Assembly: GCA_951406725.2 (NCBI GenBank)
Contig: OX597828.1
Span: 21,142,001-21,206,000, forward strand
Reading direction: 5' to 3'
Origin: Octopus vulgaris
Lineage: Eukaryota
Length of the DNA: 64,000 nucleotides
Under the pieces are notes generated by a model that saw only the letters and a program-made list of their open reading frames with translations, made no database searches and had not been told where the DNA came from. Positions within the stretch are counted from its first letter, which is position 1. Every line of letters begins with the position of its first letter. Shown here piece after piece: positions 2,511-64,000 of this stretch. Made by a program: the position numbers and the translations under genes.

Positions 2511-3533
2511 AGCAGGTTTCGTGAGATTTTCGCAATGGCTAACGAGATTTGACAAGGTGAGTAACAATTGAATTATGGAACTACTACATAAAACGAATAA
2601 CGCAACATGTCAGTTTATGCTGTGAACTATAATGGAGAAGCAATTAAATTAAGACTAACATTATTAGCATCTCTAGGCTTAATGACGTCACCATTGCTCG
2701 TCATCTGACATGGCGGCGATCGTCTGCTTGAGAGCTTTTAGAAGTGGACATATAGATATTGCTAAATGGATTGAATGAGTTAATGCCGAATTGAACAAAA
2801 GTGATCAAGAAAATGGCTAGGGGTTCGTACCATGTCATTGAATGGCAAATAACCGAATGATTAAGAAGTTTTTTTGTAATACCTAAATCCTGGTTTCGTT
2901 CCTACTGTGCTGCTTCTGAGGTAAGTGTCTTTTATTATCTGTATTGTCTTGGGTTAATCCGTGTCTTGTTAGTGAAATTGTGTAGACGGAAACTGTACGG
3001 AAACCCGTCTGATAGATTATAACAAGTCGAAAGGTTCAGCCCTGGCATACATCCTAGATGGGAACAGGGCTTTTTTAGCATCATTATAGTTCTCCAGGCA
3101 AATCAATGCGCTGAGCTGCATAGTATCTATTTTTTTTTTAGAACAAGCTACACCATATATACATCAGAATTGGGCTCCTAGACCTGTAAGGGCTGCAGGC
3201 AACTGCCTGCTGTGCGCATACTTTAAAACGACCCTGGATGGGAATTGAACTATAAAAGACGCAAATTCATGACTTTGGACCGAATGTTAGAATCCTCCTC
3301 CCTCCTCCCTCCCTTAGTTGTTGTTTTTACGGTGGTGGTGGTGGGGGGGTGATGGTGGCTGTTGTCATTGACATCACCATCATCATCACCATCATCATTG
3401 TCATCGTCGTCGTCATTTGATTGGACGTCGTCATCGCTCACCACCACGACGATCATCATCATCATCATCCCCATTGTTTACGTCGTGGTCATCACTTGGA
3501 GGTGTTTTGTGATCATGGTGCTAATGGTAGTGA

Positions 3534-6066: not shown

Positions 6067-6871
6067 CCTGCTACCCAGCAGCCAGTAAACACTGCCGCTA
6101 GTGTTGCTGCTGATAAGTAAGTGATTCACCATACTCCCTATGTTGGTGACGACACTTGTCTTAGACGTTTACTTTATATAATGGTAAGAACGTATATTTA
6201 CCATTCAACATACAATATCTATATAAACTTTAAAATAATTGATTTAAAGATATTAAAAATATTTTAAACTACAAAATGTAAGGATTGAATATCTTGACAA
6301 TATAGCAGGTAATTAAATGTGATTGGAATAAATAATTTACACATCAGTGGGTGTAACATTAACTTTGTAAATATAGTCTGTGGTAAAGAGGAAAAAATTA
6401 TCGCTTCTCGGCCTTTTGGCTAAGATCAAAGTGTAGTATCTGTTCTTATCAGCTTAATATCTGATACGGTCCCTATTTGGGACCATCGATATTAAACCGA
6501 TTTTTAGAACGAGGCGAAGTGTTAGGGGCTTGCTCCGCCTTTGCCACGGGTTGGCCTGGTATTGCAGTGCTTCCAGGATTCAGCCCATCTCCCACCCGGG
6601 AGATACAAATAAATAATAATGTCAGATATGTTATTACAGCCCCTCCCTTCAACGTTTATTATTTTTTTTGTTCATCATCGCAGCGGGTTTTCCGTTAGTT
6701 TATCTAATCGTTGCTAAAAAGACCTTCCTCGCCGTCAGCAAGCGATTTACGTTCGATCCCGCCTCAACCCATTTCCTTCCTCTTTGCTTTCTCATTTCAA
6801 ATCCCGTCATCGCTTTCACACCACCGCCTGCCAGCTTCAGTGTCTTTAGAGGGGACCCTTTTTTCTTCTAA
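6067..6871 (+). repeat. Left arm of an ~800-bp inverted repeat (U2 gene plus flanks)
   Basis: Reverse complement of 12710-13500, highly similar from CCTGCTACCCAGCAGCCAGT to TTTTCTTCTAA. Confidence 0.95.
6400..6591 (+). ncRNA. U2: U2 spliceosomal snRNA
   Basis: Starts ATCGCTTCTCGGCCTTTTGGCTAAGATCAAAGTGTAGTATCTGTTCTT, includes the branch-pairing GTAGTA, an Sm-like GATTTTTAG and loop IV TATTGCAGT; about 192 nt. Confidence 0.97.
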
Positions 6872-7456
6872 GCCCCACACGGCTTCGGCAGAAGGTAATG
6901 GGCGAAGCTTCTGCTGACTCTTTCGCCACAACTTGCTCTCACTCTTTCCTCTTGCAGCTAACCTGCAACGAACCGGCGTCCCATCCAGGTAAGGAACCTA
7001 TATGCCAAGGAAGAGACGGAAATACATACTGGCGTTTATTGTGATTTAAAAACCTCCCACCCGTGACAATCGCATCTGCTGTTTTCTCCCAGAGACTATG
7101 CTCGTAAGTAGTTATGGTGTCAGATACCAGAATTCCTACCAATTGAGCCTGTCTGTTAGCTGCTATTTCTACTTGGTTGATAGATAGGGAATGTCACTTC
7201 TTTCGTGCACCTACATTGTTTGCAGCTATTATACTTACCTGGCACAGATTTTTCCTCGGATTACGTCGGATTATTTTACGCTGTAAGCTGTTATGTTAGT
7301 TCGTTCTGTTTGTTCTGGATTTACACGTACAATTTTTGGATTATTATCTTGTGGAACAAAGTAATTTTCGCCCTTCGGGGGTAGAAAATTTCTTTTTATA
7401 TATGAACTATTAACTCAGTGTGGAATTAACTTTTATCTTGTCACTTGAATTTTAAT

Positions 7457-8937
7457 ATGGATCTTGACTTAACGTCAAATTCTGATTTTCCCGAGATGGG
7501 AGAAGGTATAAATAATGGAAAGCAAAAGGATACAAAGGAGAAACAAAGTTTTTCGGAAGCCGTTGGAGGCAATGTTATAGAACTGGAAGTAGCAATGGGG
7601 GAACTCTTCCAGTTCAGAAAGTTAATGCAAAGGAATGGAGAAGAAACAAGATTAATACCGCCCCCTGAAACGTTACAAGCAATCCGTGAGAAGACGGTAA
7701 TTTACAAATTAATGAGAAAAAAGTAGCGGATGTAAAAAATGAATTGGTAAAACGTTGTATGGCGCCAATTTGGAATAAGGTTCGCTATGTTGGCCGAGGA
7801 GTGAGAAGCGCTACGATAGAAGCGCATTTCGAGTCGGCTAGCATAGCGAAGGAAATTTCAACACAAACGTTGAAAAGTGAAGACATCCTGTTGCTGCCCA
7901 CTTACTTAGGCCGCAGAACAGCTAAAGTAACAATAGAGGACATACCAAGAGGTTACGATGTAATGTGGGCAGCAACAGCAGACATATTTGACGTAGAGGA
8001 GAAATTGAACATTTTAAACATGAGGATGAAAGAGGCGAAATTTTGGAAAGGCTAGCAGCTTGAAATGACCATTCAAGCGGACAACCGCAACGCTGGAGAG
8101 TTTGTCAGACAGGGTCTTCGTGGGGTATGGATACACTATGCGGGTATCGGTGGAGGGACGTAGGCCCAGATGTTTCAAATGTGGACAGAAGGGTCACGTT
8201 CGCTCAGAATGCAAAAAGAAAAAAACCCTTAATGCCCCCCTTCAAACCGCTGTGGAAAACAAAGCAGACATCACAGCAACAACAAAAGAGAACACCCGGA
8301 AAAAGCAAACTGAAAGTCAAAAGGAGGAAAAGAAAATGAATGGAAAACAAAACGAAAACGAAAAGTTGGAAATTTTTTATCAAATGGAAAAGAACTGGAA
8401 GTAATGGAATATACGACTGTAACCAACAAAAGGAAGAAATCCAATACCCCGGACTCCCCACCCCAAACAAAAAGAAAAACAAACGCAGAAGAACAACACA
8501 AAAAAATTATCCAATCCCACCCCGCTGGCACTACTTTTGTAGGCCAGCATTTCATTAAACCCCAGCCCCCAACTTTAAAAGGATTCAAAAAAAACATAGG
8601 TGCATTGCTTATAATGCGAAAAACGAGAGAGTGGTATGGTTCATAAAGGCGAAACCAAACATAAAATGTTTCAAGTCGACGGAAAAAGACCCGGATTGGA
8701 GGTATGCGAAGGTTGGAGAGGAAGAGTGAAAGGAGAGACTCTTCCAACTACACGTAAAAGACAACCTAATAAAAGATGTCACACAAGAGGTGATAGCTGG
8801 GAAATTGAATATTAGCCCGGCAGCCACTCCATCCCAGAGCCCGGTGGCAACGCCGGTGAAATGCCCAGCAGCTACGGAGAGTGTGGGGGAGACAGGCAGA
8901 CATAAGTTGCCATGCTCCCTCTCACAAACGTAAGTAA
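7457..8937 (+). pseudogene. Tx1 ORF1 (gag-like, zinc knuckle), disrupted
   Basis: Fragments 7445-7726, 7744-8055, 8102-8404 and 8404-8646. Contains CFKCGQKGHVRSEC and aligns with the 60519 ORF1 (PIW...V.RG, LPTYLGRRT vs FPSYRGRRT). One frame ends KRK-TAA. Confidence 0.85.
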
Positions 8938-8957
8938 CAAACTTTCTTCATTCATTG

Positions 8958-11900
8958 ATGATTAAGTTGGGCTGTATAAATGTGCGTGGAATGGAGTCGA
9001 AATGGAAACAGGCTTGTTTGCTGAACGACCTCATGACACACAGAATAGATGTAGCCATTGTCACCGAGTTCAAGATGAGAGGAACCCAAGCGTTCTCGCA
9101 TCTTCTCAATGGTTACGAGAAATTTATTTCTCCTAGCCGAGGAGGAAGTGCAGGCGTGGCAGTCCTCATCAGGAAGAACTTGGACTTACAGGTAAGTACT
9201 GTGTTTCTGGACCCAGAAGGTAGGCTGGTTGTCCTCGATGTAACTCACATGAGTAAGCAGTCCTTCAGGTTGGTAGCTGTTTATGCTCCTAATGAGGGTA
9301 GGCAGAATGGTTTTTATCGGAACTTGGAGCACTTTCTAGTGACGTCTAAAACGGTAGTATTGGTAGGGGATTTCAACACTATCATCGATGCGCAGATCGA
9401 TAGTGTGGGCTCGTCTGATAGAAGAGGGAATCCTTGCCTCAAGGGTCTACTGACGAGCTTTAATCTAGTAGATCGGTTTCGAATGGATGAGCCGAGCATT
9501 CCACAGTGGACGTGGAGTAACAATGACGGCTCACGCAGATCGTATAAAGAAAGGGTATTTGTTAGAGAACGAGATAGGAATAGCATTAGCTGTCCACAAT
9601 TTTGTATTGTGCCATACACGGATCACAAACTAGTGACGTGTGAGGTACATGTAGATAAATGCCATAGACAGGGACCCGGGTACTGGAAAATGAACAAGTC
9701 TATTTTGGCTTGTGAAGCTTTCCGTAACCGGATTATGGAATTAGTCCAGAGGGCATTATGTGGAACCATCATTAATAATAGATGGTGGATCGCCCTCAAA
9801 AGAGCCATCCGTTTGGAGTCCATTAGATTTAGCAACCAGCTAAGTTTAGAGAGGACTAGAATAGAGGGCGATTTAGTTAAGAACTTAGACGAGGCAATGG
9901 GATCTGGCTGTGCATCTAGAGTGTTAGCAGAGAGAACGGTCTTGTACCGTCACCTCAATGCCAAGCATGAAGGGTGTAGAGTCAGAGCTAAGCTACGTGC
10001 AGTGAAATGAGAAGGTATTAGTGTTGCCGGATGGGCACGTCGTGTGGAGAGTCAGAAGGGCAAAAAGTCCTGTATTAAGTCTTTAACTGACGAACAGGGA
10101 CGCAAAATCTATGGACAGGAGGTGATATAGAAGGTCTTTCAACAGCATTTCGCTCGGTTGTTTGGGGAGGGCGATCCACTCGAGCGAGGGGAGGACTTAC
10201 AGAACTTCCTAGCTGGTGGGCCTCGGCTCTCGCCACGCGGAGCGGAATGCTGTGAAGGACCGATTACTCCCGCGGAGGTAAGAGAGGTTTTGGCTGAATG
10301 CGCCCGGGAAAAGTCGCCGGGACTGGATGGTCTGCCCTATGAGTTTTATTGTTGTATGCCGGACTTGTTCGGGGACATACTGGCAAGCGTCTACGCAAAC
10401 TGGCAACAGAATGGGAGGATTCCCAGTTCTGTGAGCCGGGGAGTTGTGACGCTGATCCAGAAAGACCCGAGCAAGGGGGATAATATTAGTAATTATAGGC
10501 CCATAACTCTACTTAGTGTAGAGTTAAAGATTTTGGCCAAGGTGTTAGCAGAAAGGTTGAAGGTCGTCATGAAGAAACTTGTCGGGAAGGCACAGACATG
10601 TGCAATCCCAGGCAGGTCGATCGAAGATAATCTTCACCTTCTCTGCTACACTATAGACAGGGTTGAGCAATTAGCCGGCAAAGGAGGGGCATTGGTCCAT
10701 TTAGACCAAAGTAAAGCATTTGATAGGGTAGATCATCAGTACCTGGCGACGGTTCTCGAAGCGGCTGGGCTAGGCCCTGACTTTCGCCGGTGGATCGCAG
10801 CTATGTACAGCGGTATCAAGTCCACAGTCCAGGTAAAAGGTTACCTAACGGAACCGTTTTCGATTAAGCGTTCAGTTCGTCAAGGATGTCCCTTGTCCCC
10901 TCTCCTGTACGTTTTGGCTCTTGAGCCATTGCTGCGGAAGTTGGAGACGGTGGGATGCAATCCTAATGAAATCGGATGCGGTAAGTCTGTTTCTGCTTAT
11001 GCGGATGACGTCACCTTCATCGTGTCCAACGAAGCACAACTAACTCGTGTAGAAGGTGCTCTCCGAAGATACGAAGCGGTGGCAGGGGCAAAAGTTAACA
11101 AGGACAAGTCCACTGGTTTGCGCCTCGGCACCTGGAGGAACAAGCCGATATCGTCCAGTGCTGTTGGACACTGGACAGATGGTCCTATTAAATTGCTTGG
11201 AGTTTGGTTTGGTTCAGACTCCCAGACGGAGAAGAATTGGAGCGAGGTAGTGACCAAGGTAGAAGCATTAGCACGGAAGTGGTCCGGAAGGCATCTATCC
11301 TTGAAAGGGAGGGCGGAGGTAGTACAGGTGTTTATAGCATCTGTCATCACCTATCGCCTGACCGTCGTGCCTTGCCCCGATTTGTGGCTAAGCAAGTTGG
11401 ATCGACTCCTTTTCCGCTTTTTGTGGAAGGGAGTAAAGCCACTTGTAAGGCGCTCCGTGTGTTGCCAGGAACCACTAAAGGGTGGGCTGGGGATGCCTTG
11501 GTTAATGATGCGCAGGCATGCGCTGAGACCGAGACATCTCTGGTTTCACCTGGCGGGTGATAAGGTGTGGAGTCCGCTGGCAGATAAATTCTTCCCGCGA
11601 CCGGACTCTATGGAGAGATTTAAACCCGGTTTCATTAAAAGACGGAATCTGACTTTATGGCAGAAGGAGTGTCGACAGGCACTCTGGCTGATCCACAAGA
11701 TAGGCAAAGCCGGCAGCGGGAATACCACCTCGACATTTTATAGATGGATGGTAGAGGCAAAAAATGACGGCATCTTAGGAGGGGCTCTGGGGTTCGATGA
11801 GGATCAACTATCCAACCTGTTTAAGAAGACTTTCAGGCCGGGGTATTTGGACAATTACCAAAAATCCCTGACTTGGCAGTGCTATAGGAATGCTCTACCT

Positions 11901-12356
11901 GTTCGCGATAAGTTATATAGGCATGGAATGTCAGTGCCACCGACATGTCCAAGATGTGGGTTGGACGATGAAACCGTTCAGCACGCTTTTGTACATTGTC
12001 AGGAGCTGTCAGGCTTAATAAGTTACGTAGAACACGTGTTGTCGCATCTGGGACGAGTACAGCTATCGGCTGGCTCTATAATAAAGATGATACCGCCAGC
12101 TGGACTCTCAAAGGAAGGTGAGGCTTGTTTTCACTGTACGGTGGCAGTACTGAAAGAGTGTGTGTGGAGAACTAGAATGGAAGGTTTGGTGACAGGATCC
12201 TTTGTCTCTGGATATGGTATGTTAAAATACTTCAGATATCATCTGAAGAGCAAGATGGATTTGGAGAAGAGGAACCTGACACAGAAAAAGTATGTGAATC
12301 GATGGAAGGATGTGATAAAAAAGGTGGGTGTGAGTAACCCTGCTTCGTCATCATGA
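8958..12356 (+). pseudogene. Tx1 ORF2 (APE endonuclease, reverse transcriptase, zinc finger) with two in-frame stops
   Basis: Motifs NVRG, VYAP, GDFN, TDH; KSPGLDG, YRPITLL, DQSKAFD, QGCPLSP, YADD; CPRC...H...C. ORFs 8955-10010 and 10158-12356 share a frame and are split by TGA at 10008 and TAG at 10128. Confidence 0.93.
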
Positions 12357-12709
12357 AAGGAGAAAATAGTCTCTGGGCTCTTAGGCTGTCGGGTAAGAAT
12401 ATTTACTGTGATATACCTATCTGGCCAAAATTATTTTAAATAAAAAAAAAAAAGGAGAAAAGTAAAGTCTAGAATTGTAATCAATAATCAACATATGTAA
12501 ATATCAAATGAACAACATAAACTTTTTGTAATTATGTTTTGTATTGTAATGTCCTATCTCTGTAACGATTTTTATAATCATAAAGATTTTATACTTTGTA
12601 GTAGTAAAGGGGAAATGCAGTTTCACCGTAACTTTGCTTGGCACCTGAGACTGGTGTGAAAGATAGAGAGGGGAAAAGTATACTTAACATGGAGACCTGA
12701 ATCGACTGT

Positions 12710-13500
12710 TTAGAAGAAAAAAGGGTCCCCTCTAAAGGCACTGAAGCTGGCAGGCGGTGGTGTGAAAGCGATGACGGGATTTGAAATGAGAAAGCAAAGA
12801 GGAAGGAAATGGGTTGAGGCGGGATCGAACGTGAATCGCTTGCTGACGGCGAGGAAGGTCTTTTTAGCAACGATAGATAACTAACGAAAAACCCGCTGCG
12901 ATGATGAACAAAAAAAAATATATATTGAGGGAAGGGGCTGTAATAACATATCTGACATTATTATTTATTTGTATCTCCCGGGTGGGAGATGGGCTGAATC
13001 CTGGAAGCACTGCAATACCAGGCCAACCAGTGGCAAAGGCGGAGCAAGCCCCTAACACTTCGCCTCGTTCTAAAAATCAGTTTAATATCGATGGTCCCAA
13101 ATAGGGACCGTATCAGATATTAAGCTGATAAGAACAGATACTACACTTTGATCTTAGCCAAAAGGCCGAGAAGCGATAATTTTTTCCTCTTTACCACAGA
13201 CTTTATTAACACAAGTTAATGTTACACCCACTGATGTGTAAATTATTTATTCCAATCACATTTAATTACCTGCTATATTGTCAAGATATTCAATCCTTAC
13301 ATTTTCTAGTTTAAGATATTTTTAATATCTTTAAATCAATTATTTTAAAGTTTATGTAGATATTGTATGTTGAATGGTAAATATACGTTCTTACCATTGT
13401 GTAAAGTAAACGTTTAAGACAAGTGACGTCACCAAGCTAGGGGGGCTCGGCGAATCACTTATCAGCAGTGTGGGCTATTGACTGGCTGCTGGGTAGCAGG
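12710..13500 (-). repeat. Right arm of the ~800-bp inverted repeat
   Basis: Reverse complement of 6067-6871. Confidence 0.95.
12986..13177 (-). ncRNA. U2: U2 spliceosomal snRNA, second copy
   Basis: Reverse complement of 6400-6591 with two substitutions that I could see (AAACCGAT/AAACTGAT and CACGGGTT/CACTGGTT). Confidence 0.97.
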
Positions 13501-15979: not shown

Positions 15980-17359
15980 GGCACCGCGAGTGTCGCGTTG
16001 CTCTCAAGCAACTCTGCCGTCCTGGGTCGACCTTGAGTGACTTCAACACAACCAAAGCATTCTATAGGGGTTTAGTGGAGGGGAGGTACGACGACGAGCT
16101 CGGGGCGAACCTGGACGTCGACGAGGAGTACCTGACCCGCCTATTCAGGACGACTTTCGGGCCAGGGCCCATGGACAACTTCTAGAGATCCCTGGCCTGG
16201 CAGTGCTACTGAGAAGCGCTACCCGTTCGGGATAAGCTCTACAGACACGGCTCGAGAAACACGGGGCCGACCTGCCCGAGATGCGGTCAGAGCGACGAAA
16301 CCGTTCTGCACGCACTCGTGCAGTGTCCAACAATTTCCGACCTGTGGGCTTGTGTCGAACAACTGCTGTCACGTGTGGGACGAGTCGGTTTATCAGCTGA
16401 GTCTATCGTTAATATTGTCACGCCTCCCTCCTTCACACGGGAAGGAAGAGCTATTTTCATCATCCTTGTGGCTATGGCGAAAGAATGTATCTGGTGGACG
16501 CGTCTGAAAGGATTGGAGACAAACACTTTCCTCTCTGGTCAATCTCTCATCAACTTCTTCAAGTACCACTTGAAAAGGAAAGTGAGAGTAGAGAGGCAAG
16601 TTTTGTCTAGCGAATGTTTTAAAAAAAGATGGGTGAATGTAGCAAGAATGGCACGTATGAATGACGAAGCCACCTTGAGCATGATCCTATGAACCCAGAA
16701 ATTGAAAACAGAGAGTTGCTTATTTGCAAAAAAAAAAAAAAAGAAATATAACATGTGACTCCATTGACCGAGGTTACCGTGGTCTTTTCCGTAGGCTTTT
16801 CTTTCCACGGGTAAACCTCACCTGTCCTCCCCTTTACACTTCATATTGACATTTCTGTGATAACGATCCCTATTGATCAATTTTTTTTTTTCTTCCTCTC
16901 CCCCTTTTTTTTTAAACCCCCTTTTTTTGTCCTCTTTCTCTCCTTTTACGATCCCTTTTGATCGAAACTCCCCCTTCCTTTTTTTTTTTTTTTTTTTTAA
17001 ACCTTCAAAAGAAAAGCTCTACCTTGTAATTTGTTCTATCTGTGTGCAGCCCTGTGTGGCTAATAAAGAAACATATCTATCTATCAGGCTTTTCTTTCCA
17101 CGGGCAAACCTCACCTGTCCTCCCCTTTACACTTCATATTGACATTTCTGTGATAACGATCCCTATTGATCAATCCCCCCCCTTTTTTTAAATCCACCCC
17201 CTTTTTTTGTCCTCTTTCTTTCCTTTTACAATCCCTTTTGATCGAAAATCAACCCCCCTTTTTTCTTTTTTTTAAAAAATTTTTTTACCCCCAAAAGAAA
17301 AGCTCTACCTTGTAATTTGTTCTATCTGTGTGCAGCCCTGTGTGGCCAATAAAGAAACT
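15980..17359 (+). mobile_element. 5'-truncated Tx1 element plus a second 3'-UTR-only copy, embedded in (TATC)n
   Basis: WQCY*EALPVRDKLYRHG...CPRCGQSDETVLHALVQC is homologous to the copy-1 ORF2 C-terminus. 3'UTR segment 16793-17073 is repeated at 17086-17359. TATC runs lie at 15891-15979, 17074-17085 and 17360-17377. Confidence 0.9.
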
Positions 17360-18320
17360 TATCTATCTATCTATCTACTTGTGTCTAACACAGGGCTCGG
17401 GGAACATGTTTTAACCAATAACCCCAAAATATATTTATTTATGCTGACGTTACCCCGTTTGATTTGAAAGGAAGAACATCAGTCTTTGAATTCAAAAGGT
17501 TCATTGAATCTATTTTAAAAAATCTATTTACACGTTCATTACATTGCACAGATGCAGCGTTGCCAAAAGGAAAATTTCTATCGCAACAAGGAACACGTTT
17601 TTTTTTAATGTAATTTTACTTATGTTTAACGAGTCCTCATTACCCCCAAGAATTTCATTTTTACTGCACCTAGGGTAATTTAATCCAGGTATATGAAATC
17701 TTTACACCGGTTCGCTGACACCTGCTCTAACATGTTTTGCGGTATTTCGTCCGTCTTTATATTTTGTACACCGAGGTCGACTTTGCTATTCTACCTCTCG
17801 GGGTCGATAACATAAATATTAGTTGTTCATTACTCCTGCCGCCCAGAAATTGCAGGCCTTGTGCCAAAATTTGAAATCATTATTGCACGAGTAGGTATTC
17901 AAAGCAGCGAACTGGTTGGCCGGGCGAAATGCTAAACGGCACTTTGTCCGTCTTTACATGCTGAATTCAAATTCCGCTGAAGGCGACTTTGCCTTTCGTC
18001 CTTACGGTGTTCGATAAAATAAGTACCAGTCATGTGCTGAGAGGCCGATGTAATCGACTTCACCACCCCTACACAATTTAAGCGTTTAGAAAGAATATAA
18101 AATAACCGGCATTGAAAACCTTAAATTTGAGAAAAAAGAATTCAGAATAGGCGCAGGAGTGGCTGTGTGGTAAGTAGCTTGCTAACCAGCCACATGGTTC
18201 CGGGTTCAGTCCCACTGCGCGGCATCTTGGGCAAGTGTCTTCTGCTATAGCCCCAGGCCGACCAATGCCTTGTGAGTGGATTTGGTAGACGGAAACTGAA
18301 AGAAGCCTGTCGTATATATG

Positions 18321-18355
<35 letters not shown>

Positions 18356-19165
18356 GTGTGTCTGTGTTTGTCCCCCTAGCATTGCTTGACAACCGATGCT
18401 GGTGTGTTTACGTCCCCGTCACTTAGCGGTTCGGCAAAAGAGACTGACAGAATAAGTACTGGGCTCACAAAGAATAAGTCCTGGGGTTGATTTGCTCGAC
18501 TAAAGGCGGTGCTCCAGCATGGCCGCAGTCAAAATGACTGAAACAAAAGAGTAAAAAGAGTAAAAGAGTAATTGTAATTTTATTTTTAATGTGAACTTAA
18601 AAAAGAAAAGGAAAATCCGAAAAAAAAGTAACAAAATCAAAAAAATTAGTGGGGGTTGAATGAAAATTTGAAAAGCTGCTTTATATTTTTGCAAAAATTG
18701 TAATCTTAGTTGTTGACGACGTAGGGGGTAAAAAAAAACATACGGGCAGAGTGTCTATTCGATATGTCCATCAAGAAATTACTGAAAAATATCAATATTT
18801 CTACAAGTATTGTGTGATTAAAAATCGAAACAATGTCACAATTGATAGAACAACAGCTAAGTCAAAACTTAACAATCGTATATGCGGCTATGTAAAGTAA
18901 CACTGCTAGCTCAGTATAATCTTCCTCGCTCACACACTCTCTATCTCTCTCATTGTCGGCCTGTGTATCTCTCTCTCTCTTTATATATATCTCTCTTTCT
19001 CTCTCTAATACCCCTCTATTTTTTCTTTATCTACCTCTCTCTTTTCCTCTCTCTGTCTTTCTCCTTTCTGTGTCTCTACATCATCTCTTACCTGTCTTTA
19101 CGTCTGTGCTTCTCTCTCTATCTCATCTGTCTGTCTCCCTTCTTTACCCTCTTTGCTGTTGCTCG

Positions 19166-43341: not shown

Positions 43342-43844
43342 CCGTAAATCCTCGAGTATGGTCCGCCCTTGAGTATAATACGCAGGGGATTTTTAGGGGG
43401 CTGTACCTCTGAAAAACCTAAACCTTGTGTATAATACGCACCCCTTCTCTAACTTGAGTCAAGGAGGTCTATATAACGTCCTTGGTTTGTAAAACTGTAT
43501 ATGGTAACGTCCTTTATTATTATTGTATAAATAACATAATGCAAACGTGTAGCTTTTTTGTGCATTTTGTTTGCAGAAAATGAAGAAATAACATTTAATA
43601 AATGTTGCTTACTGCAAGTTATGGATGATTCTTTTATGACTTCTTTGCTTTCAGGCTTAGCTTAAGGTATTTTCATGCCCGACATCAGAAAATGCGTCTG
43701 AATAAACATTGCCGGACAGCAAATAGAGACTCGGACATTGCTTAGAAAATAATTTTCATTTGAAACCTCATATATAGTACACACTAGGGATTTTGACCTT
43801 TAAATTTTGGGGAAAAAATGCGGATTGTACTCGAGGATTTATGG
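43342..43844. mobile_element. pogo/Tigger-like MITE
   Basis: TA-CCGTAAATCCTCGAGTA...TACTCGAGGATTTATGG-TA. Confidence 0.85.
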
Positions 43845-43955
43845 TATATATGTATATATTGCATGTTTTATACACACAGGTATTATATAGATGTATGCGC
43901 CCTCACATAGATTGTTTCCATTTAAATGATTGTGTGTATGTATGTTTCTATTCAG

Positions 43956-44107
43956 GACGTGGAATGAAGAGCGGAGACAACTTCAAGCTCCTTTATGATC
44001 TTGCTGATAAAATGAATGCAGCTGTTGGTGCATCTCGTGCTGCAGTTGATGCTGGTTTTGTCCCTAATGATCTTCAGGTTGGGCAGACAGGCAAGATTGT
44101 GGCACCG
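43956..44107 (+). CDS. ETFA: ETFA exon 8
   Basis: TTCAG|(G)[50 protein letters not shown]|GTAAGT, part of the FAD-binding domain. Confidence 0.98.
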
Positions 44108-45985
44108 GTAAGTTTTGCTTTGGCTTTTTTGTTTTTGCACCTGAAATTCCAGGTGCTGTCCCTCTCTTTCTTCTCTTTCTCTATCTATCCATCCATCCAT
44201 CTATCCATCCTTCCTTCCTCATTTAATCTCCATTGTCCATGCTGGCATGGGTTGGACAGTTTGACCAGAACTGAAGAGCTGCATGATTTGGCTTGATTTC
44301 TACGGCTGGATGCCCTTCCTAGCACCAACCTCTTTATAGAGTGTGCTGACCACTTTCACATGGCACCACATGCGTGCTTTTGTGTGGCACCATGCAGGTG
44401 TTTTCACTTGGCACTGTCATGTGTGCTTTTCACCACCAGAGGGACTAGTCTTAACACTTCTGCTGTGGGGTATGGATCTTCTTGAGTACAGCAAGGTACC
44501 AGGCATCTTGATTCTTATATGTATACATATATGTGAAGGCACGTGGCTTAGTGGTTAGGGCATTCAGCTTATGGTCTTAAGGTCATGAGTTCAATTCCCA
44601 GCGACGCGTTGTGTCCTTGAGCAAGACACTTTATTTCACGTTGCTCCAGTCTACTCAGCTGGTAAAAATGAGTATCACAAAAGGCCTCCAACTAGGCCTT
44701 TTGTGATACCGTTAAAACCAGGAACTTTTCAACACCCCCTCATACATGTAAATATATATAAAATATAAAGAGAAACAAAAGCTGAAAATATCCGGAAGAT
44801 GAACATTCATGTTTAAGCATTGAGGTATTTATAGAGTAGATTTACATGGAGTACAAATAATAGAGAAAACTAAGGGGAAAAGGCATGATATTTCAGGTCC
44901 GACAGCTGTTTCTGGGAATTTGGAATTATGTAATAGTTGTAATAATGGCAGATGGAGTGTGCAAAATCTCAAGAATATGTAACCAGTTGCAGATGCATAT
45001 AAATGCTAGTGTAAATCTGGCTTCTGTTATCAGAGTGGAGAGGTTGGCATCTAACTTTTCCTGTTCATAATGTGGTGGAGGGATTTAAGGTTAAAATGAG
45101 TGAAGAAGGTAAATAGAAATTGGTTGGTGGAAGTAGGCAGTTCAAGGGAGCAAAGGAGTGCTGAAAGAAAAGAAGGGCAAGAAGAGAGAAGAGAGGCAGA
45201 GCAGGGAGAGGATGGGGTTGAGTGACCAAGGGATTAAGAGATGTAGTAGTGGTGGTGAGTAATGTGAAGGGTGGTGGTGGTGTTGGGTTTGACAAAATGT
45301 TATTAATCAGGGATGGTGGAGCCCATGGAACTGAGTAGTGGTTATCATGAGAGAAGGGACCCAGTTATAGATGCCTGATTTGAACAACAATGACAGATAT
45401 CAATATTTACTGTTATTTCAGCTGATTGCTGCCATAAATGCCTATGTGTATGTATGTATGCATGCATGTGTGTGTGTGTATGTGTATATATACATACACA
45501 TACATACATACATACATACATATATACACACACATATACACACATATACATATACACAGATACACACACATACATATACATGCACATACATATACACACA
45601 TACACATATACATACATAGATATGCACACATACATATACGTACATCATCATCATCATCGTTTAACGTCCGCTGATGATGATGTGTGTATATATATGTATA
45701 TGTATGTGTGCATATCTATGTATATGTGTATATATATGTATGTGTGTATGTATGTGTGTGTATATCAGTGTATATGTGTGTATGTATATGTATGCACACA
45801 TACATATACACAGATACACACACATATACATATGCACACATACATAACACACACACATACACATGTACATATACAGAGATATGCACACATATACATACAT
45901 ATACACACACACATGCATAGATATGCATACACACACATATATACACACTCATTTATGCATTTATACATACATGTCAAGTTCATTG

Positions 45986-55924: not shown

Positions 55925-56844
55925 TCTACTCTAGGCACAAGGCCCGAAATTTTGGGGGAGGGGGGCCAGTCGATTAGATCGACCACAGTACGCAAATGGT
56001 ACTTAATTTATCGACACCGAAAGAATGAAAGACAAAGTCGACCTCAGTGGAATTTGAACTCAGAACGTAAAGACGGGTGAAATACCTATTTCTTTATTAC
56101 ACAGAAGGGACAGACAAACGGATTAAGTCGATTATATCGACCCCAGTGCGTAACTGGTACTTATATAATCAACCCCGAAAGGATGAAAGGCAAAGTCGAC
56201 CTCGGCGGAATTTGAACTCAGAACGTAGCGGCAGACGAAATACCTATTTCTTTACTACCCACAAGGGGCTAAACACAGAGAAGACAAAACAAGGACAGAC
56301 AACGGGATTAAGTCGATGAGATCGACTCCAGTACGCAACTGGTACTTAATTTATCGACCCCGAAAGGATGAAAGGCAAAGTCGACCTCGGCGGAATTTGA
56401 ACTCAGAACGTAACGGCATACGAAATACCTATTTCTTTATTACCCACAAGGGGCTAAACACGGAGGGGACAAACAAGGACAGACATAGGTATTAAGTCGA
56501 TTACATCGACCCCAGTGCGTAACTGGTACTTAATTTATCGACCCCGAATGGATGAAAGGCAAAGTCGACCTCGGCGGAATTTGAACTCAGAACGTAGCGG
56601 CAGACGAAATACCTATTTCTTTACTACCCACAAGGGGCTAAACACAGAGAGGACTAACAAGGACAGACAAACGGATTAAGTCGATTATATCGACCCCAGT
56701 ACGCAAATGGTACTTAATTTATCGACCCCGAAAGGATGAAAGGCAAGTCGACCTCGGCGGAATTTGAACTCAGAACGTAACGGCATGCGAAATACCGCTA
56801 AGCATTTCGCCCGGCGTGCTAACGTTTCGGCCAGGTCGCCGCCT

Positions 56845-56846
<2 letters not shown>
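55925..56846 (-). repeat. Tandem array of family-B SINE bodies behind a single head
   Basis: GAAATACC junctions at 56079, 56237, 56422, 56606 and 56789, a period of about 184 bp. Confidence 0.9.
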
Positions 56847-59232: not shown

Positions 59233-59332
<100 letters not shown>

Positions 59333-59591
59333 TGTATGTATGTATGTATGTATGTATATGTTTGTGTGTCAGTGTTTGTCCGGCAATCATCGCTTGACAA
59401 CTGATGTTGTTGTGTTTACGTCCCCGTAACTTAACGGTTCGACAAAAAAACCGATCGAATGAGTACTAGACTTACAAAGAATAAGTCCTTGCGTCGATTT
59501 GATTTGTTTGACTGAAGGCGGTGCTCCAGCTTGGCCGCAGTCAAACGATTGAAAAAAAGTAAACGAATAAAAGAATTCATACATACATACG

Positions 59592-59628
<37 letters not shown>

Positions 59629-60518
59629 GTGTGTGTGTGTGGCACCATTGGTAAATATATAATTAATGAAGATTAATACAATTAATAAGATTAGAGTAAT
59701 ATAAAATTTATGAAGTTGCTGATTTGCAAGTTGAATGTAGACAAATATAGTTAAACACAATAGCGGATGACGGTAGATAGTTGCTGTTGATGGTGATGAT
59801 GATGACGATGACGAATACGATGACGACGACGATGACAATGACGACGACGACGACGACGACGATGACGATGTTGATTACGACGATGATAACGACGTCATCG
59901 ACACTGATGATGATGAGAAAGGAAATGACATCGATACGGAAATGAATCTCAAAATCTATTTAATGCAGTTATATGTCTTGCGACATTACGGAAATTTGTC
60001 AATGTAAAGGTTACGTACAGCTCAACCAGTTTGTAAATAGGTAAAATATTTTCGAAAATGTCCAATCGGAAAGAAATATTCATAATAAAAAACAGCAGGA
60101 GTGGCTGTGTGGTAAGTAGCTTGCTAACCTCACTGACAGAAGAGTGACTTTGCTTACCGTACTACGGTTTGGACGCGTTTTCTTCCCGGTAAGAGTTTTG
60201 CTGTGTTGTTAATTGTTGAATTCCTACTACTGAAAATTTGCCTTTAAACGTTGCTGAACTGTCTTGTTCTCCGGTTTTACCGGGAAATAATTGAATAATT
60301 TCTTACCGTTGAACTGTTAGCCACTGTGGCTTTTTATTTACGTGATTATATATAGTCCTGCCAGACTATTTTCGTGCCCCTCCCCCGAATGGGGGTGGGA
60401 ATTGGAATTTTTGAACTGCTTTTTTGAACTACTTTGGAAGAAAAACTTTCTATAGGTTTCCCAGTTTTGTGGGAAACCAATACTCGTAATTTTTGTGTTG
60501 TCTAATTTCAACAGAATA

Positions 60519-61924
60519 ATGTCTGTTGAAATTATTCACGAAAGTAGTGCTCTTGAGGAGAGCAATGTTAAAAAATTTTCTGCGGTAGCCGCAGTGGCTA
60601 CCGAGAACATTGACATCGATGTCAACCAGCTCGTCGAGCTATTTAAAAGAATGCAAGAGGAGGGTGGTGATGTTAAAATATCACCCTCCGCCAGTATCGT
60701 GGAGACCGAGAAGCGGACCGTAGTGTTTAAAACTTTCTGTCCACAAAGCAGAAGGTTCAAACACTTTGAAAAAAGCACCATCGAGAAATGCCTGTCCCCG
60801 ATTTGGAAGGACATCGTGTACGTCGCCAGGGGACGGGCATATGGCACTGTGGATGTCCGCTTCTCGGGGGAAGAAATGGCCCGCGGGCATTCTGTGAACC
60901 CCCTAAAAACCAAGGAGGTGGTACTTTTCCCAAGCTATAGGGGACGCAGGACGTCCCGGGTCAGGATTGTAGAAGCCCCGCCGGAAGTAGATCCGGCAGA
61001 GGTAGTGGCCGCCCTGTTATATAAAAGGGCGGACAAAATTAAAATACTAGAAGTAACATGCTCTGCCCCTCTATTTTGGCTCGGGCGTAACATTAATATA
61101 TTAATTCAAGGAACAGCGGAGGACCTGCAGCTCCTTCCTGAGAGGGTGCTCGTGGGCGAGAACATAGCCCTCAGGGTACAGGTCGAAGGCCGAAAACCCA
61201 CCTGTTACGCCTGCGGCAAAAAAAGGCTACATTCGTGTAGACTGTCCAGACAAGCAAAAGAAACCGCAGACACCAGGCCCCTCAGATAATAAAAAAGTCC
61301 CTACCCTTGCAAACTCCCCTACCCCTACAAAAACAAAAAATCCCACTCCTGCTGTTACGGTGCCAACCCCAAAACAGACTGAAGAAAAAACCCAGCCCTC
61401 GCACTCACAAACCCCTACATTATTAAAACCTCCCACCCCCCCTAAAAACTGTGGCGCCTACCGAACAAACTTTTGCTACCCCAGACGATACCATGGAGGT
61501 ATCAGAGGGGGGATTTACACCAGTTCGTAAAAGAATTCGTGCATCATCCCCGTCCACATCCCCTACAAAAAATAATAAAAACAAAGACACACCACAGACA
61601 CGGAAAAAAAAATCCCGCTCAACTGGCCCAGAAAAAGAAGACAAAAAAGAAAATGAACTCATATTAATGGAATTCGACACACAAGACAAATACATAAACG
61701 ATATTGTGGTTCAGCATCAGTCAGCAAGACTGTACAACAAATACAAAGATCGAAATAGACACGCGTGGATTGCGGAAACAACGTTCAAACAATTAAAAGA
61801 CAGACACCCAAACGCCATCCGGTATATCGCGAACTTGCCGGACTATCTGAAGAAAGAGGAGAAAGAAGGGGCCCACAAACGTGTGGTGAGGTCGGCCCCC
61901 ACCTCTCCAACGAAACGTAAGTAG
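60519..61924 (+). pseudogene. Tx1 ORF1 with two apparent frameshifts
   Basis: ORFs 60495-61289 and 61451-61924. Removing one A from the A7 run at 61218-61224 gives CYACGKKGYIRVDC. The ORF ends KRK-TAG. Confidence 0.8.
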
Positions 61925-61941
61925 AACTTTTACTTTTTGTA

Positions 61942-64000
61942 ATGGCTTCGCTTAACCTTGGTTGTTTAAATGTGCGTGGTCTGAGTTCGAAGTGGAAGCA
62001 GGCTTGTTTCCTCGACGACCTCAGATCACATGATATACATGTGATGGTTGCTACAGAGACCAAGCTGGACAGCCTACAAACCTTCTCGCCTCTCCTGAAT
62101 GGCTACGAGAAAATCATGTCTCCTGGCCAGACCGGAGGGCGAGGGGGCGTAGTGGTACTGATCCGTAAAGACTTGGCTCTACAGACAAGTACAGTCTATG
62201 TAGACCCAGAAGGTGGGCTGGTCGTCCTTGATGTGACATGCAGCAGTAAGGCCTTCAGGTTGATCGGACTCTATGCACCTTGTGCTAGAGGTTTCCAAAC
62301 TGATTTTTATCGGCGCCTAGAGGGCTTTCTCGTGACGTCGAAGACTTTAGTGATATTAGGGGACTTTAATGCTATCGTTGACGTACACATCGATAGCGTT
62401 GGCTCGATCTATAGGAAAGTGAACTCACGTCTCGTGGATCTGCTTAAGCGGTTTCAGCTGGCAGATCGTTACAGACTTGACCATCCGAACGTCCCAGAGT
62501 GGACCTGGATGAGTGGCGACGGAAGGTTCAAGTCTTATCTAGACAGGATAGTGATAAAAACTAGAGATAAGTCTAGTTTTAGTTGTCCACAGCTCGTCCA
62601 GGTACCCTATACTGACCATAGAATGGTCACGTGTAGACTGGACATAGATAGCACACTTAAGATAGGAACCGGCTACTGGAAGCTGAACAAGTCCATTTTG
62701 ACACGCGAGGCATACCGTAGCCGGATTAAGGTGTTAGTGCAGAGGGCGTTAACCGGAGCCGTGGTTAATAACCGGTGGTGGTTCGTCCTCAAAAGAGCCA
62801 TTCGATTCGAGTCCATTAGATTTAGTAAACAACTAAGACTAGATAGGGCTAGAATAGAAGGGCAACTAGTTAAGAACTTAGAGGAAGCGTTGAGGTTGGG
62901 CTCTGCATCTCACATTTTAGCGGCGAGAACGGCATTAGACCGTCACCTCAAAACCAAACATGAGGGATGTAGAGTTCGGGCTAAAGTACGAGCATTGAGC
63001 CGTGAGGGAATTAATGTTGCCGGATGGGCCCGTACGATAGAAACACAGCGTGGAAACGATGCCACAATTGGGTCTCTTGTTGATGAAAACGGATGCACGA
63101 TCAAGAAGCGGGACGAGATGTGTGAGGCACTTCACAAGCACTTCGCCGAGTTGTTCGGGAGGTGCGGGACGCTGGATCATGGTGAGGCCCTTAGGGACTT
63201 CCTGTCTGGTGGCCCGCGCCTCTCGACACGAGAGGCTGAGTGCTGTGAAGGGCCAATCACAGCCGAGGAAGTAATCGAGGTGTTGGGCAAATGCCCCGGG
63301 GAGAAGTCGCCGGGTCTCGATGGTCTGCCCTATGAATTTTATAGAAGTATGCCAGACTTGTTCGGGCACCTGCTGGCTAGCGTCTACGCCAACTGGCAGC
63401 AGAATGGGAGAATTCCCAAGTCTGCGAGCCGGGGGGCGGTGACGTTGATCAGGAAGGACCCGAACAAGGGGGACGAGATAGGGAACTTCAGGCCCATAAC
63501 TCTGTTAAACACAGAGTTAAAGATTCTGGCCAAGGTGCTAGCAAAAAGGTTGGCGCGGGTCGTGGACAAACTTGTCGGGGAAGCGCAAACGTGCGCTATC
63601 CCCGGCAGAACGATCCACGACAATCTCCACCTTATACGCTACTCCTTAGAGAGGGTGGGGAAGCTTTCTGGCGCAGGGGGAGCACTGGTACATTTAGACC
63701 AGTCCAAAGCATTTGATAGGGTCGACCATCGGTACCTGGCGGCGGTCCTCGGAGAGGCTGGCCTAGGCCCGACCTTTCGAGGTTGGATCGCTGCTTTGTA
63801 TAGCGACATCGATTCTGTAGTCAAGGTGAACGGTTCCTTTTCGAAGCCGTTCAGGATCGAGCGTTCAGTTCGTCAAGGGTGTCCCCTGTCCTCGCTCCTA
63901 TACGTATTGGCTCTTGAGCCCTTGCTGCGGAAGTTAGAGGCACTAGGGGGCGCGCCGCATGATCTATGGTGTGGAAGAGGAGCTACGGCGTATGCGGATG
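61942..64000 (+). CDS. Tx1 ORF2 (APE and RT), apparently open to the window edge
   Basis: MASLNLGCLNVRGLSSKWKQ...GDFN...TDH...KSPGLDG...DQSKAFD...RQGCPLS...AYAD in one frame (686 codons). It is probably missing from the track because no stop is reached. Confidence 0.88.
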   Translation, partial: MASLNLGCLNVRGLSSKWKQACFLDDLRSHDIHVMVATETKLDSLQTFSPLLNGYEKIMSPGQTGGRGGVVVLIRKDLALQTSTVYVDPEGGLVVLDVTCSSKAFRLIGLYAPCARGFQTDFYRRLEGFLVTSKTLVILGDFNAIVDVHIDSVGSIYRKVNSRLVDLLKRFQLADRYRLDHPNVPEWTWMSGDGRFKSYLDRIVIKTRDKSSFSCPQLVQVPYTDHRMVTCRLDIDSTLKIGTGYWKLNKSILTREAYRSRIKVLVQRALTGAVVNNRWWFVLKRAIRFESIRFSKQLRLDRARIEGQLVKNLEEALRLGSASHILAARTALDRHLKTKHEGCRVRAKVRALSREGINVAGWARTIETQRGNDATIGSLVDENGCTIKKRDEMCEALHKHFAELFGRCGTLDHGEALRDFLSGGPRLSTREAECCEGPITAEEVIEVLGKCPGEKSPGLDGLPYEFYRSMPDLFGHLLASVYANWQQNGRIPKSASRGAVTLIRKDPNKGDEIGNFRPITLLNTELKILAKVLAKRLARVVDKLVGEAQTCAIPGRTIHDNLHLIRYSLERVGKLSGAGGALVHLDQSKAFDRVDHRYLAAVLGEAGLGPTFRGWIAALYSDIDSVVKVNGSFSKPFRIERSVRQGCPLSSLLYVLALEPLLRKLEALGGAPHDLWCGRGATAYAD

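What the first reader, a model, noticed from the sequence alone, without database searches (positions are those of the whole stretch)
60095..60200. Tx1 copy begins inside the tRNA-like head of a SINE
Seen: GCAGGAGTGGCTGTGTGGTAAGTAGCTTGCTAACC, the first 35 nt of SINE family A, is followed abruptly by the LINE leader CTCACTG. Known: Xenopus Tx1L targets another transposon. Inference: a LINE using an abundant SINE as a landing site, or a chimera made by template switching. With the two other copies, one lineage shows three different multicopy targets within 60 kb, suggesting rapid target-specificity switching.
Basis: partly seen in the sequence, partly recalled or inferred. Interest (0 to 1): 0.7.

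Follow-up and report, generated by a model that had tools for sequence, protein, structure and literature searches.

The report
LINE capped by SINE head fragment
A young, near full-length LINE retrotransposon in a likely octopus genome starts right behind 35 bases of an abundant short repeat's head; this is likely a one-off copying chimera or chance landing of a known kind rather than a new targeting system.

Summary
The junction is real: 60095-60129 equals 35/35 the head of SINE copy 18153, and sequence shared by the LINE family begins within 9 nt of it. The LINE (ORF1 with two frameshifts; open APE-RT ORF2) belongs to a young family of roughly 35-46 5'-complete copies in run X9. The 3' end lies beyond the window and no genome is held, so the decisive test (SINE resumes? 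TSD?) could not be run. Indirect evidence goes against family-wide SINE targeting: none of the 15 joints shown (of 38) joins the SINE head to a truncated LINE, although such joints look detectable. 'One lineage, three targets, rapid switching' fails: the three copies are three families (copy 1 vs 3: 64% amino acid, dS about 1; copy 2 closer to another protein), each seen once; only copy 2's (CTAT)n target is supported. Best reading (0.4): a SINE-RNA 5' fragment added by template switching, as Kojima 2015 describes for Tx1-mobilised elements. Rivals: chance insertion into a SINE, true targeting, an inherited head. Side finding: about 50 or more head-to-head SINE junctions in X9.

The parts
59920..60094 (+). 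A-rich 5' flank (30% GC), not repeated in the window; ends AAAAAACA, like the A-rich flanks of ordinary SINE copies
   Evidence: depth 0 in run X9 for 59920-60056
60095..60129 (+). 35-nt SINE head fragment: tRNA-equivalent nt 1-35, A-box-like motif at 60102-60112, no B box; by box numbering it ends just 3' of the anticodon-equivalent (inferred)
   Evidence: 35/35 to 18153-18187; only head-truncated hit of 17
60130..60518 (+). LINE 5' leader; family-shared from at least 60139; splice-donor-like site at 60189 and acceptor-like site ending at 60514 just before the ORF1 ATG
   Evidence: X9 contig 60139-60284, 0 differences, depth 2158; motif scan
60519..61924 (+). ORF1, broken in this copy by two one-base frameshifts (near 61218 and 61436); CCHC-knuckle / RNA-binding look-alikes
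   Evidence: three-frame translation; X9 contigs lack one base at 61218 and 61436 (table 4); ESM Atlas zf-CCHC and ZCCHC3-like clusters, scores 0.91-0.94
61942..64000 (+). ORF2, 686 codons open to the window end: APE endonuclease plus reverse transcriptase of the L1 group
   Evidence: Pfam PF03372 E 1.8e-12, PF00078 E 5.6e-21; best PDB hit human L1 ORF2p E 4e-54
18150..18569 (+). Complete reference copy of the SINE family
7496..12356 (+). Copy 1: coding span of a sister LINE family (decayed ORF1; ORF2 with 2 stops in the part compared); ends not determined; lies between inverted U2-bearing arms
15980..17358 (+). Copy 2: 5'-truncated LINE of a third family, with a duplicated 3' end, in a (CTAT)n microsatellite
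   Evidence: CTAT repeats before 15980 and after both 3' ends at 17072 and 17358

Best explanation
This near full-length L1-group LINE copy carries the first 35 tRNA-like bases of an abundant SINE at its 5' end, likely because its reverse transcriptase, on finishing the LINE RNA, jumped onto a SINE RNA and copied it to near its 5' end, giving a one-off chimera. Shown: the junction, the identity of the head to a young SINE copy, that the LINE is almost 5'-complete, and that the family is young and multi-copy. Inferred: target-primed reverse transcription at an A-rich site, the jump, and that the SINE RNA was broken at or near its anticodon-loop equivalent. Predicted: no SINE remainder after the 3' tail, and a target-site duplication enclosing head plus LINE. 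The fragment lacks the B box, so it would not act as a Pol III promoter.
For: Same orientation, 35/35 identity to a young copy (other full heads 29-34/35), start at the tRNA-equivalent +1 without the 3-nt genomic leader. Family sequence starts by 60139, so the copy is nearly full length, where an end jump is expected (table 8). 0 of 15 joints shown (38 found; the 15 deepest) join the head to an internal LINE position, though joints with 21-28-nt sides and head-to-head joints were detected (tables 5 and 5c); if 8 of the 38 were such joints the chance of seeing none is 0.010, if 20, 5e-8. All 12 rows shown of 39 in table 5c are head fragments ending at nt 27 or 32 joined to another SINE start, so head fragments do get added to 5' ends in this genome. 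Kojima 2015 (PMC4494074): 26 SINEU-2 copies have independent U1-like 5' extensions with variable 3' ends, ascribed to template jumping by Tx1-type machinery.
Against: No 3' junction and no TSD seen. Missing a few 5' bases is also common in ordinary SINE copies (3 more start at model positions 9-11), so it does not single out a jump. The A-rich flank looks like a normal SINE insertion site, which fits a pre-existing SINE equally well. The joint test is from one run of another organism label; 23 rows of table 5, 27 of table 5c and 270 loose-end rows were not shown; the deepest-15 rows are treated as a random draw, which is an assumption. The head-to-head junctions mostly share one variant letter and may descend from one event. 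Raw-read runs X20-X22 gave 4, 2 and 0 reads and were no test.
Confidence: 0.4

Rival explanations
1. Chance insertion: a LINE with little or no sequence specificity landed inside a pre-existing SINE copy; the rest of the SINE follows the LINE's 3' end.
For: The SINE's two modules cover 7.1% of the window (4564 of 64000 bases); SINEs are 11.6% of the O. vulgaris assembly (PMC13282606 passage). The flank is A-rich like other SINE flanks. No head-to-LINE joints among 15 shown. The endonuclease hairpin loop aligns to human L1 without a gap.
Against: Heads are only about 1.2% of the window (12 x 66 nt), half that in the same orientation, and this head is mutation-free against a young copy. These are after-the-fact odds.
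Confidence: 0.23
2. Sequence-specific or preferential targeting: the family's APE endonuclease cuts the conserved SINE head near nt 35, using the SINE as a safe, abundant landing site.
For: Many Tx1 families target multicopy sequences, transposons included (Tx1D, Mariner-N4, Harbinger, LTR elements; PMC4494074). Copy 2 in this window shows microsatellite targeting. Head-to-head SINE junctions at nt 27 and 32 lie 3-8 nt from the LINE junction. DNA transposons (Dada) target anticodon regions of tRNA genes (PMC8869645 passages).
Against: Depth rises from 2158 in the leader to about 3100-3250 at 61200-61800, which suggests some 15-24 shorter copies; each should give a head-to-LINE joint, and 0 of 15 shown do. 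One copy only. No loop extension in the endonuclease (weak).
Confidence: 0.19
3. Inherited head: an ancestral chimera became the master, so all full-length copies begin with the same 35-nt SINE head, as crocodilian Tx1-2_Crp, Tx1-4_AMi and Tx1-11_Crp begin with U1 or U2 heads.
For: Precedent in PMC4494074. Predicts no head on truncated copies, as seen.
Against: The longest 5' contig starts at 60139 and does not run into the head (weak, because contigs break every few tens of bases). The fragment has no B box, so no evident promoter gain.
Confidence: 0.16

Closest known systems
Crocodilian Tx1-Mar families and SINEU (Kojima 2015, PMC4494074; parts 1-4 of 5 read)
   Same: Tx1-type LINEs or their passengers with short small-RNA-derived 5' heads; recurrent 5' additions with variable 3' breakpoints; Tx1 families that target other transposons.
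   Different: There the heads come from U1/U2 and the targets are DNA transposons or LTR elements, shown over hundreds of copies; here a tRNA-type SINE head in one copy, with no family-level proof.
Xenopus Tx1L (target Tx1D), as summarised in PMC4494074
   Same: APE-RT LINE next to another transposable element.
   Different: Tx1L specificity is shown biochemically and across copies; here not. The LTX chimera chain (PDB 2v0r, 240 aa) is 2 residues longer than L1 endonuclease chain 1vyb (238 aa); this element's loop aligns to L1 without a gap. That the 2 residues are the grafted Tx1L loop is recalled.
Kibi / Koshi microsatellite-specific Tx1 families
   Same: Copy 2 sits in (CTAT)n at its 5' end and both 3' ends.
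   Different: Different repeat unit; concerns copy 2, not the finding.
U6/L1 and other small-RNA/L1 chimeras of mammals (cited in PMC4494074)
   Same: 5' fragment of a small RNA fused in sense to a LINE.
   Different: Here the donor is a SINE head and the LINE is nearly full length.
Octopus tRNA-derived SINEs OK/OR1/OR2 (Ohshima and Okada 1994; seen only as a citation in PMC4758252; OK and OR1 recalled)
   Same: Likely the class to which SINE family A belongs (inference).
   Different: No sequence comparison was possible; a full-text search with a head stretch found 0 papers.

Membership tests
L1 group non-LTR retrotransposon | ORF2 with APE endonuclease followed by RT, closest to L1 | tested here: met
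   Pfam; L1 ORF2p E 4e-54 against R2 E 6e-19 in PDB
L1 group non-LTR retrotransposon | Separate ORF1 with RNA-binding / CCHC features | tested here: met
   ORF1 60519-61924, frameshifted; Atlas look-alikes zf-CCHC and ZCCHC3-type at 0.91-0.94; Pfam itself found none
Tx1 clade | RT phylogeny grouping with named Tx1 references | tested here: inconclusive
Target-specific Tx1 family (Kojima criterion) | More than 20% of family insertions flanked by one type of sequence | tested here: inconclusive
   One copy in hand; 0 of 15 joints shown (38 found) link SINE head to truncated copies, which leans against; hidden rows leave it open
Target-specific Tx1 family (Kojima criterion) | Target resumes after the 3' end, with TSD or defined target alteration | not testable with these tools
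   3' end about 1.6 kb beyond the window by comparison with copy 1; no genome held; no loci of this family in the scanned collections
Template-switch chimera | Sense 5' fragment of another RNA joined to the LINE 5' end | tested here: met
Template-switch chimera | One TSD enclosing both parts; no donor remainder at the 3' end | not testable with these tools
   3' end outside the window
tRNA-derived SINE (SINE2) | Head with Pol III A and B boxes / tRNA homology | tested here: inconclusive
   A-box-like at nt 8 and B-box-like at nt 51 (recalled motifs); no tRNA call by ARAGORN or Rfam at E up to 10; cloverleaf not the predicted fold

The most novel reading that the evidence does not exclude
An octopus Tx1 family whose endonuclease targets the anticodon-loop equivalent of the host's most abundant tRNA-derived SINE, a LINE that lives inside SINEs and also drops SINE copies into the same site (the head-to-head junctions in run X9). 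No SINE-specific LINE turned up in the paper searches, but Repbase Reports and subscription journals are not in that library.
Probability: 0.15. Interest if true: 0.55.

Novelty: new member of a known kind. Interest (0 to 1): 0.25.

Why it matters
As a one-off chimera or chance nesting it is ordinary: such events are described for L1 and Tx1. It would matter if the family proved SINE-specific: it would add SINEs to the list of safe-harbour targets, give a young, near-intact APE endonuclease with a short known target for studying how specificity arises from tRNA-like sequence, and link a LINE to the turnover of a repeat class that makes up about a tenth of an octopus genome. One alignment against a public octopus assembly would settle it.

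Tried and rejected
No genome for this window. Leader pattern: 0 matches in metagenome, genome and viral contigs; SINE-head pattern: 0 in genome and viral contigs. ORF2 search: 80 metagenome loci kept of 262, best-segment identity 23-48%, none with DNA similarity to the SINE, leader or ORF2; no tRNA gene in 31 of those 80 loci scanned; none in viral contigs. ORF1 search among longer proteins: none. Raw-read runs X20-X22: 4, 2, 0 reads laid of 12.9 million each, so no test of copy number or empty allele; only 4 of 24 listed runs could be laid. The loose-end table shows 8 of 278 rows and none at 60130, which is uninformative. Copy 1 as a U1-targeting element: a 5'-U1-like stretch at 7231-7247 (likeness recalled) is also the reverse of a splice-donor consensus, Rfam finds no U1 in 6600-13000, and the longest word shared by the two ends is 8 nt: not established. 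A by-eye likeness of copy 1 near 6938 to the copy 3 junction (CTTGCT then CTCACT, donor-like site 50-60 nt later) did not survive shuffles (669 and 564 of 1000 scored as high; alignment). Copy 2 as the missing 3' end of copy 3's family: unlikely, since copy 3 is sister to copy 1 while copy 2 is much closer to P0001 (indirect, no overlap between copies 2 and 3). No ribozyme or known RNA in the leader above gathering scores. Folding of head and junction no better than shuffles. No head-to-head SINE in the window. Earlier scan findings: none returned.

Full report
Observation. Bases 60095-60129 are identical over 35 nt to the head of SINE copy 18153; a 22-nt head pattern occurs 7 times in the window against 0.00 expected. 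Of 17 hits of the SINE 5' module, 16 run to model position 153-161 and only this one stops in the head. The 7 other copies with a full head carry three more bases before this G, as does the consensus of 78 contigs of run X9, so the fragment lacks the genomic start of the SINE; it begins where tRNA numbering puts +1 (A-box-like motif at nt 8, B-box-like at nt 51, motifs recalled) and by that numbering ends just after the anticodon-equivalent (inference). ARAGORN and Rfam do not call the head a tRNA. The fragment holds the A box but not the B box.

The LINE. A 389-nt leader precedes ORF1 (60519-61924; two one-base frameshifts in this copy, both absent from deep X9 contigs) and ORF2 (61942 to the window end, open, APE plus RT). 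The best solved relative is human L1 ORF2p (E 4e-54); ORF1 resembles CCHC / ZCCHC3-type clusters. The nearest named proteins are from Argonauta hians (51%) and Sepia pharaonis (47%), so the host is a coleoid, likely an octopus (inference). Tx1-clade membership could not be tested against named references. The family is young and multi-copy: 15 of 24 listed runs hold half or more of the sampled words, even small runs; in X9, contigs of the 5' region differ by 0-1 base in 132-173 and have depth 2158-3075 against 46-61 for contigs that look single-locus, roughly 35-46 5'-complete copies (rough, the single-locus depth is my reading). Family sequence starts by 60139, within 9 nt of the head, so this copy is nearly full length.

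Is the SINE the family's target? The 3' junction lies about 1.6 kb beyond the window, no genome is held, and seven collection scans gave no locus of this family. The single read-laying run was used on 59920-64000. Three raw-read runs carried almost nothing (4, 2, 0 reads) and were no test. X9 contigs allow an indirect test, the one Kojima used (5'-truncated copies should still abut the target; PMC4494074). Depth rises from 2158 in the leader to about 3100-3250 at 61200-61800, which suggests some 15-24 shorter copies there and more in ORF2; under targeting each should give a joint from the head to an internal LINE position. Of 38 joints the 15 deepest were shown (depth 51-111, sides 21-49 nt): all lie within the LINE body, none starts in the head. 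If 5, 8 or 20 of the 38 were head joints, the chance of seeing none is 0.067, 0.010 or 5e-8. Limits: one run, of an organism label in which the window's flank has depth 0; 23 rows of that table, 27 of table 5c and 270 loose-end rows were not shown; heads of another subfamily could fall into table 5c; extra depth could come from subfamilies with another leader. This lowers family-wide targeting but does not exclude it.

A side result in the same call: all 12 rows shown (of 39) in table 5c join a SINE head ending at nt 32 (11 rows) or nt 27 (1 row) to the start of another SINE head, summed depth about 2800, some 50 copies or more. Most share one variant letter at the second head's +1, so they may be one amplified subfamily or a tandem array; short contigs of the unmutated form may have escaped detection. 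None is in the window. It shows that head fragments ending 3-8 nt from our junction sit in front of other retrocopies, which fits both recurrent 5' addition and a cutting hot spot.

Three targets, one lineage? No. Copies 1 and 3 are sisters (98/95) but 57.6% identical in the endonuclease, 72% in RT, with dS 0.97 over 680 codons. On the calibration in PMC13282606 (JC 0.2 = 56 My; passage) that is of the order of 100 My at the host's neutral rate; LINE lineages may run faster, but it is not rapid. Copy 2 is 47% identical to copy 1 and 65.5% to P0001. Only copy 2's target is supported: (CTAT)n before 15980 and after both 3' ends, as with Kibi/Koshi. Copy 1 lies between two inverted arms each holding an intact U2 gene, not in U2; its ends are undefined, the U1-like stretch at 7231 is unproven (likeness recalled) and no TSD over 8 nt was found. 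The hairpin loops differ (copy 3 MSGDGRFK, copy 1 SNNDGSRR), both of L1 length; this says nothing firm about specificity.

Mechanism. I favour (0.4) a template switch at the end of reverse transcription onto a SINE RNA: sense orientation, mutation-free young head, start at +1, near full-length LINE, no sign of head joints in truncated copies, and precedent for repeated 5' additions in Tx1-mobilised SINEU-2. Chance insertion into a SINE (0.23) fits the A-rich flank and the SINE's 7.1% share of the window. True targeting (0.19) and an inherited head like those of Tx1-2_Crp or Tx1-11_Crp (0.16) remain. These odds are my judgement, not a computed result.

Literature seen. PMC4494074: parts 1-4 of 5 of the text, figures and supplements not seen; the flank alignments there could bear on known targets. 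PMC13282606: passages and a term search of its one supplement (80 L1-Tx1 families, 56 Mb). PMC4640811, PMC8869645, PMC4758252, PMC3706591, PMC5786205: passages only. Searches listed no paper whose title, abstract start or read passages describe a SINE-targeting LINE or octopus Tx1 targets; Kojima and Fujiwara 2004, Ohshima and Okada 1994 and Repbase Reports were not seen.

Verdict. Real junction, known kinds of event, decisive half missing. New member of a known kind; interest 0.25. If the family proved SINE-specific (probability 0.15) it would deserve about 0.55.

Noticed in passing
run X9 contigs laid on window 60095-60126 (table 5c): Head-to-head SINE junctions: head nt 1-32 (or 1-27) followed by 5-7 bases and another head start; 12 of 12 rows shown (39 found), summed depth about 2800. 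Subfamily with a doubled head, 37-nt tandem array or nested insertions.
   Followed up: partly
window 6118-6871 and 12710-13461: A 756-nt inverted repeat at 95.9% identity, each arm with an intact U2 snRNA gene (6400-6593 +, 12984-13177 -), encloses LINE copy 1; possibly a U2-cluster spacer insertion or an inversion linked to the LINE.
   Followed up: partly
window 60189 and 60514; 6989, 7104 and 7495: Both sister LINE copies have a splice-acceptor-like signal directly before the ORF1 ATG and donor-like sites upstream, as if the leader held an intron (motif scan; no control run).
   Followed up: partly
window 7231-7247: Stretch resembling the 5' end of U1 snRNA (recalled) inside or before copy 1's leader; also reads as a strong splice donor on the minus strand.
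   Followed up: partly
window 15980-17358: 5'-truncated LINE in (CTAT)n with a tandemly duplicated 3' end (86% identical copies), a likely microsatellite-specific family.
   Followed up: partly
window 59236-59574: Orphan 3' half of the same SINE family (microsatellite plus 3' module) without its 5' module, 520 nt upstream of the head fragment.
   Followed up: no
window 60153-60194 and 60275-60307: Short inverted repeats in the LINE leader (CTTACCG / CGGTAAG), and a TTGCTTACC word shared with the commoner SINE head variant.
   Followed up: no
window 43841-44296: Exon-like stretch resembling electron transfer flavoprotein alpha (recalled likeness, not searched).
   Followed up: no
window 55968-56846: Tandem run of about 184-nt units of a second abundant repeat family.
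   Followed up: no
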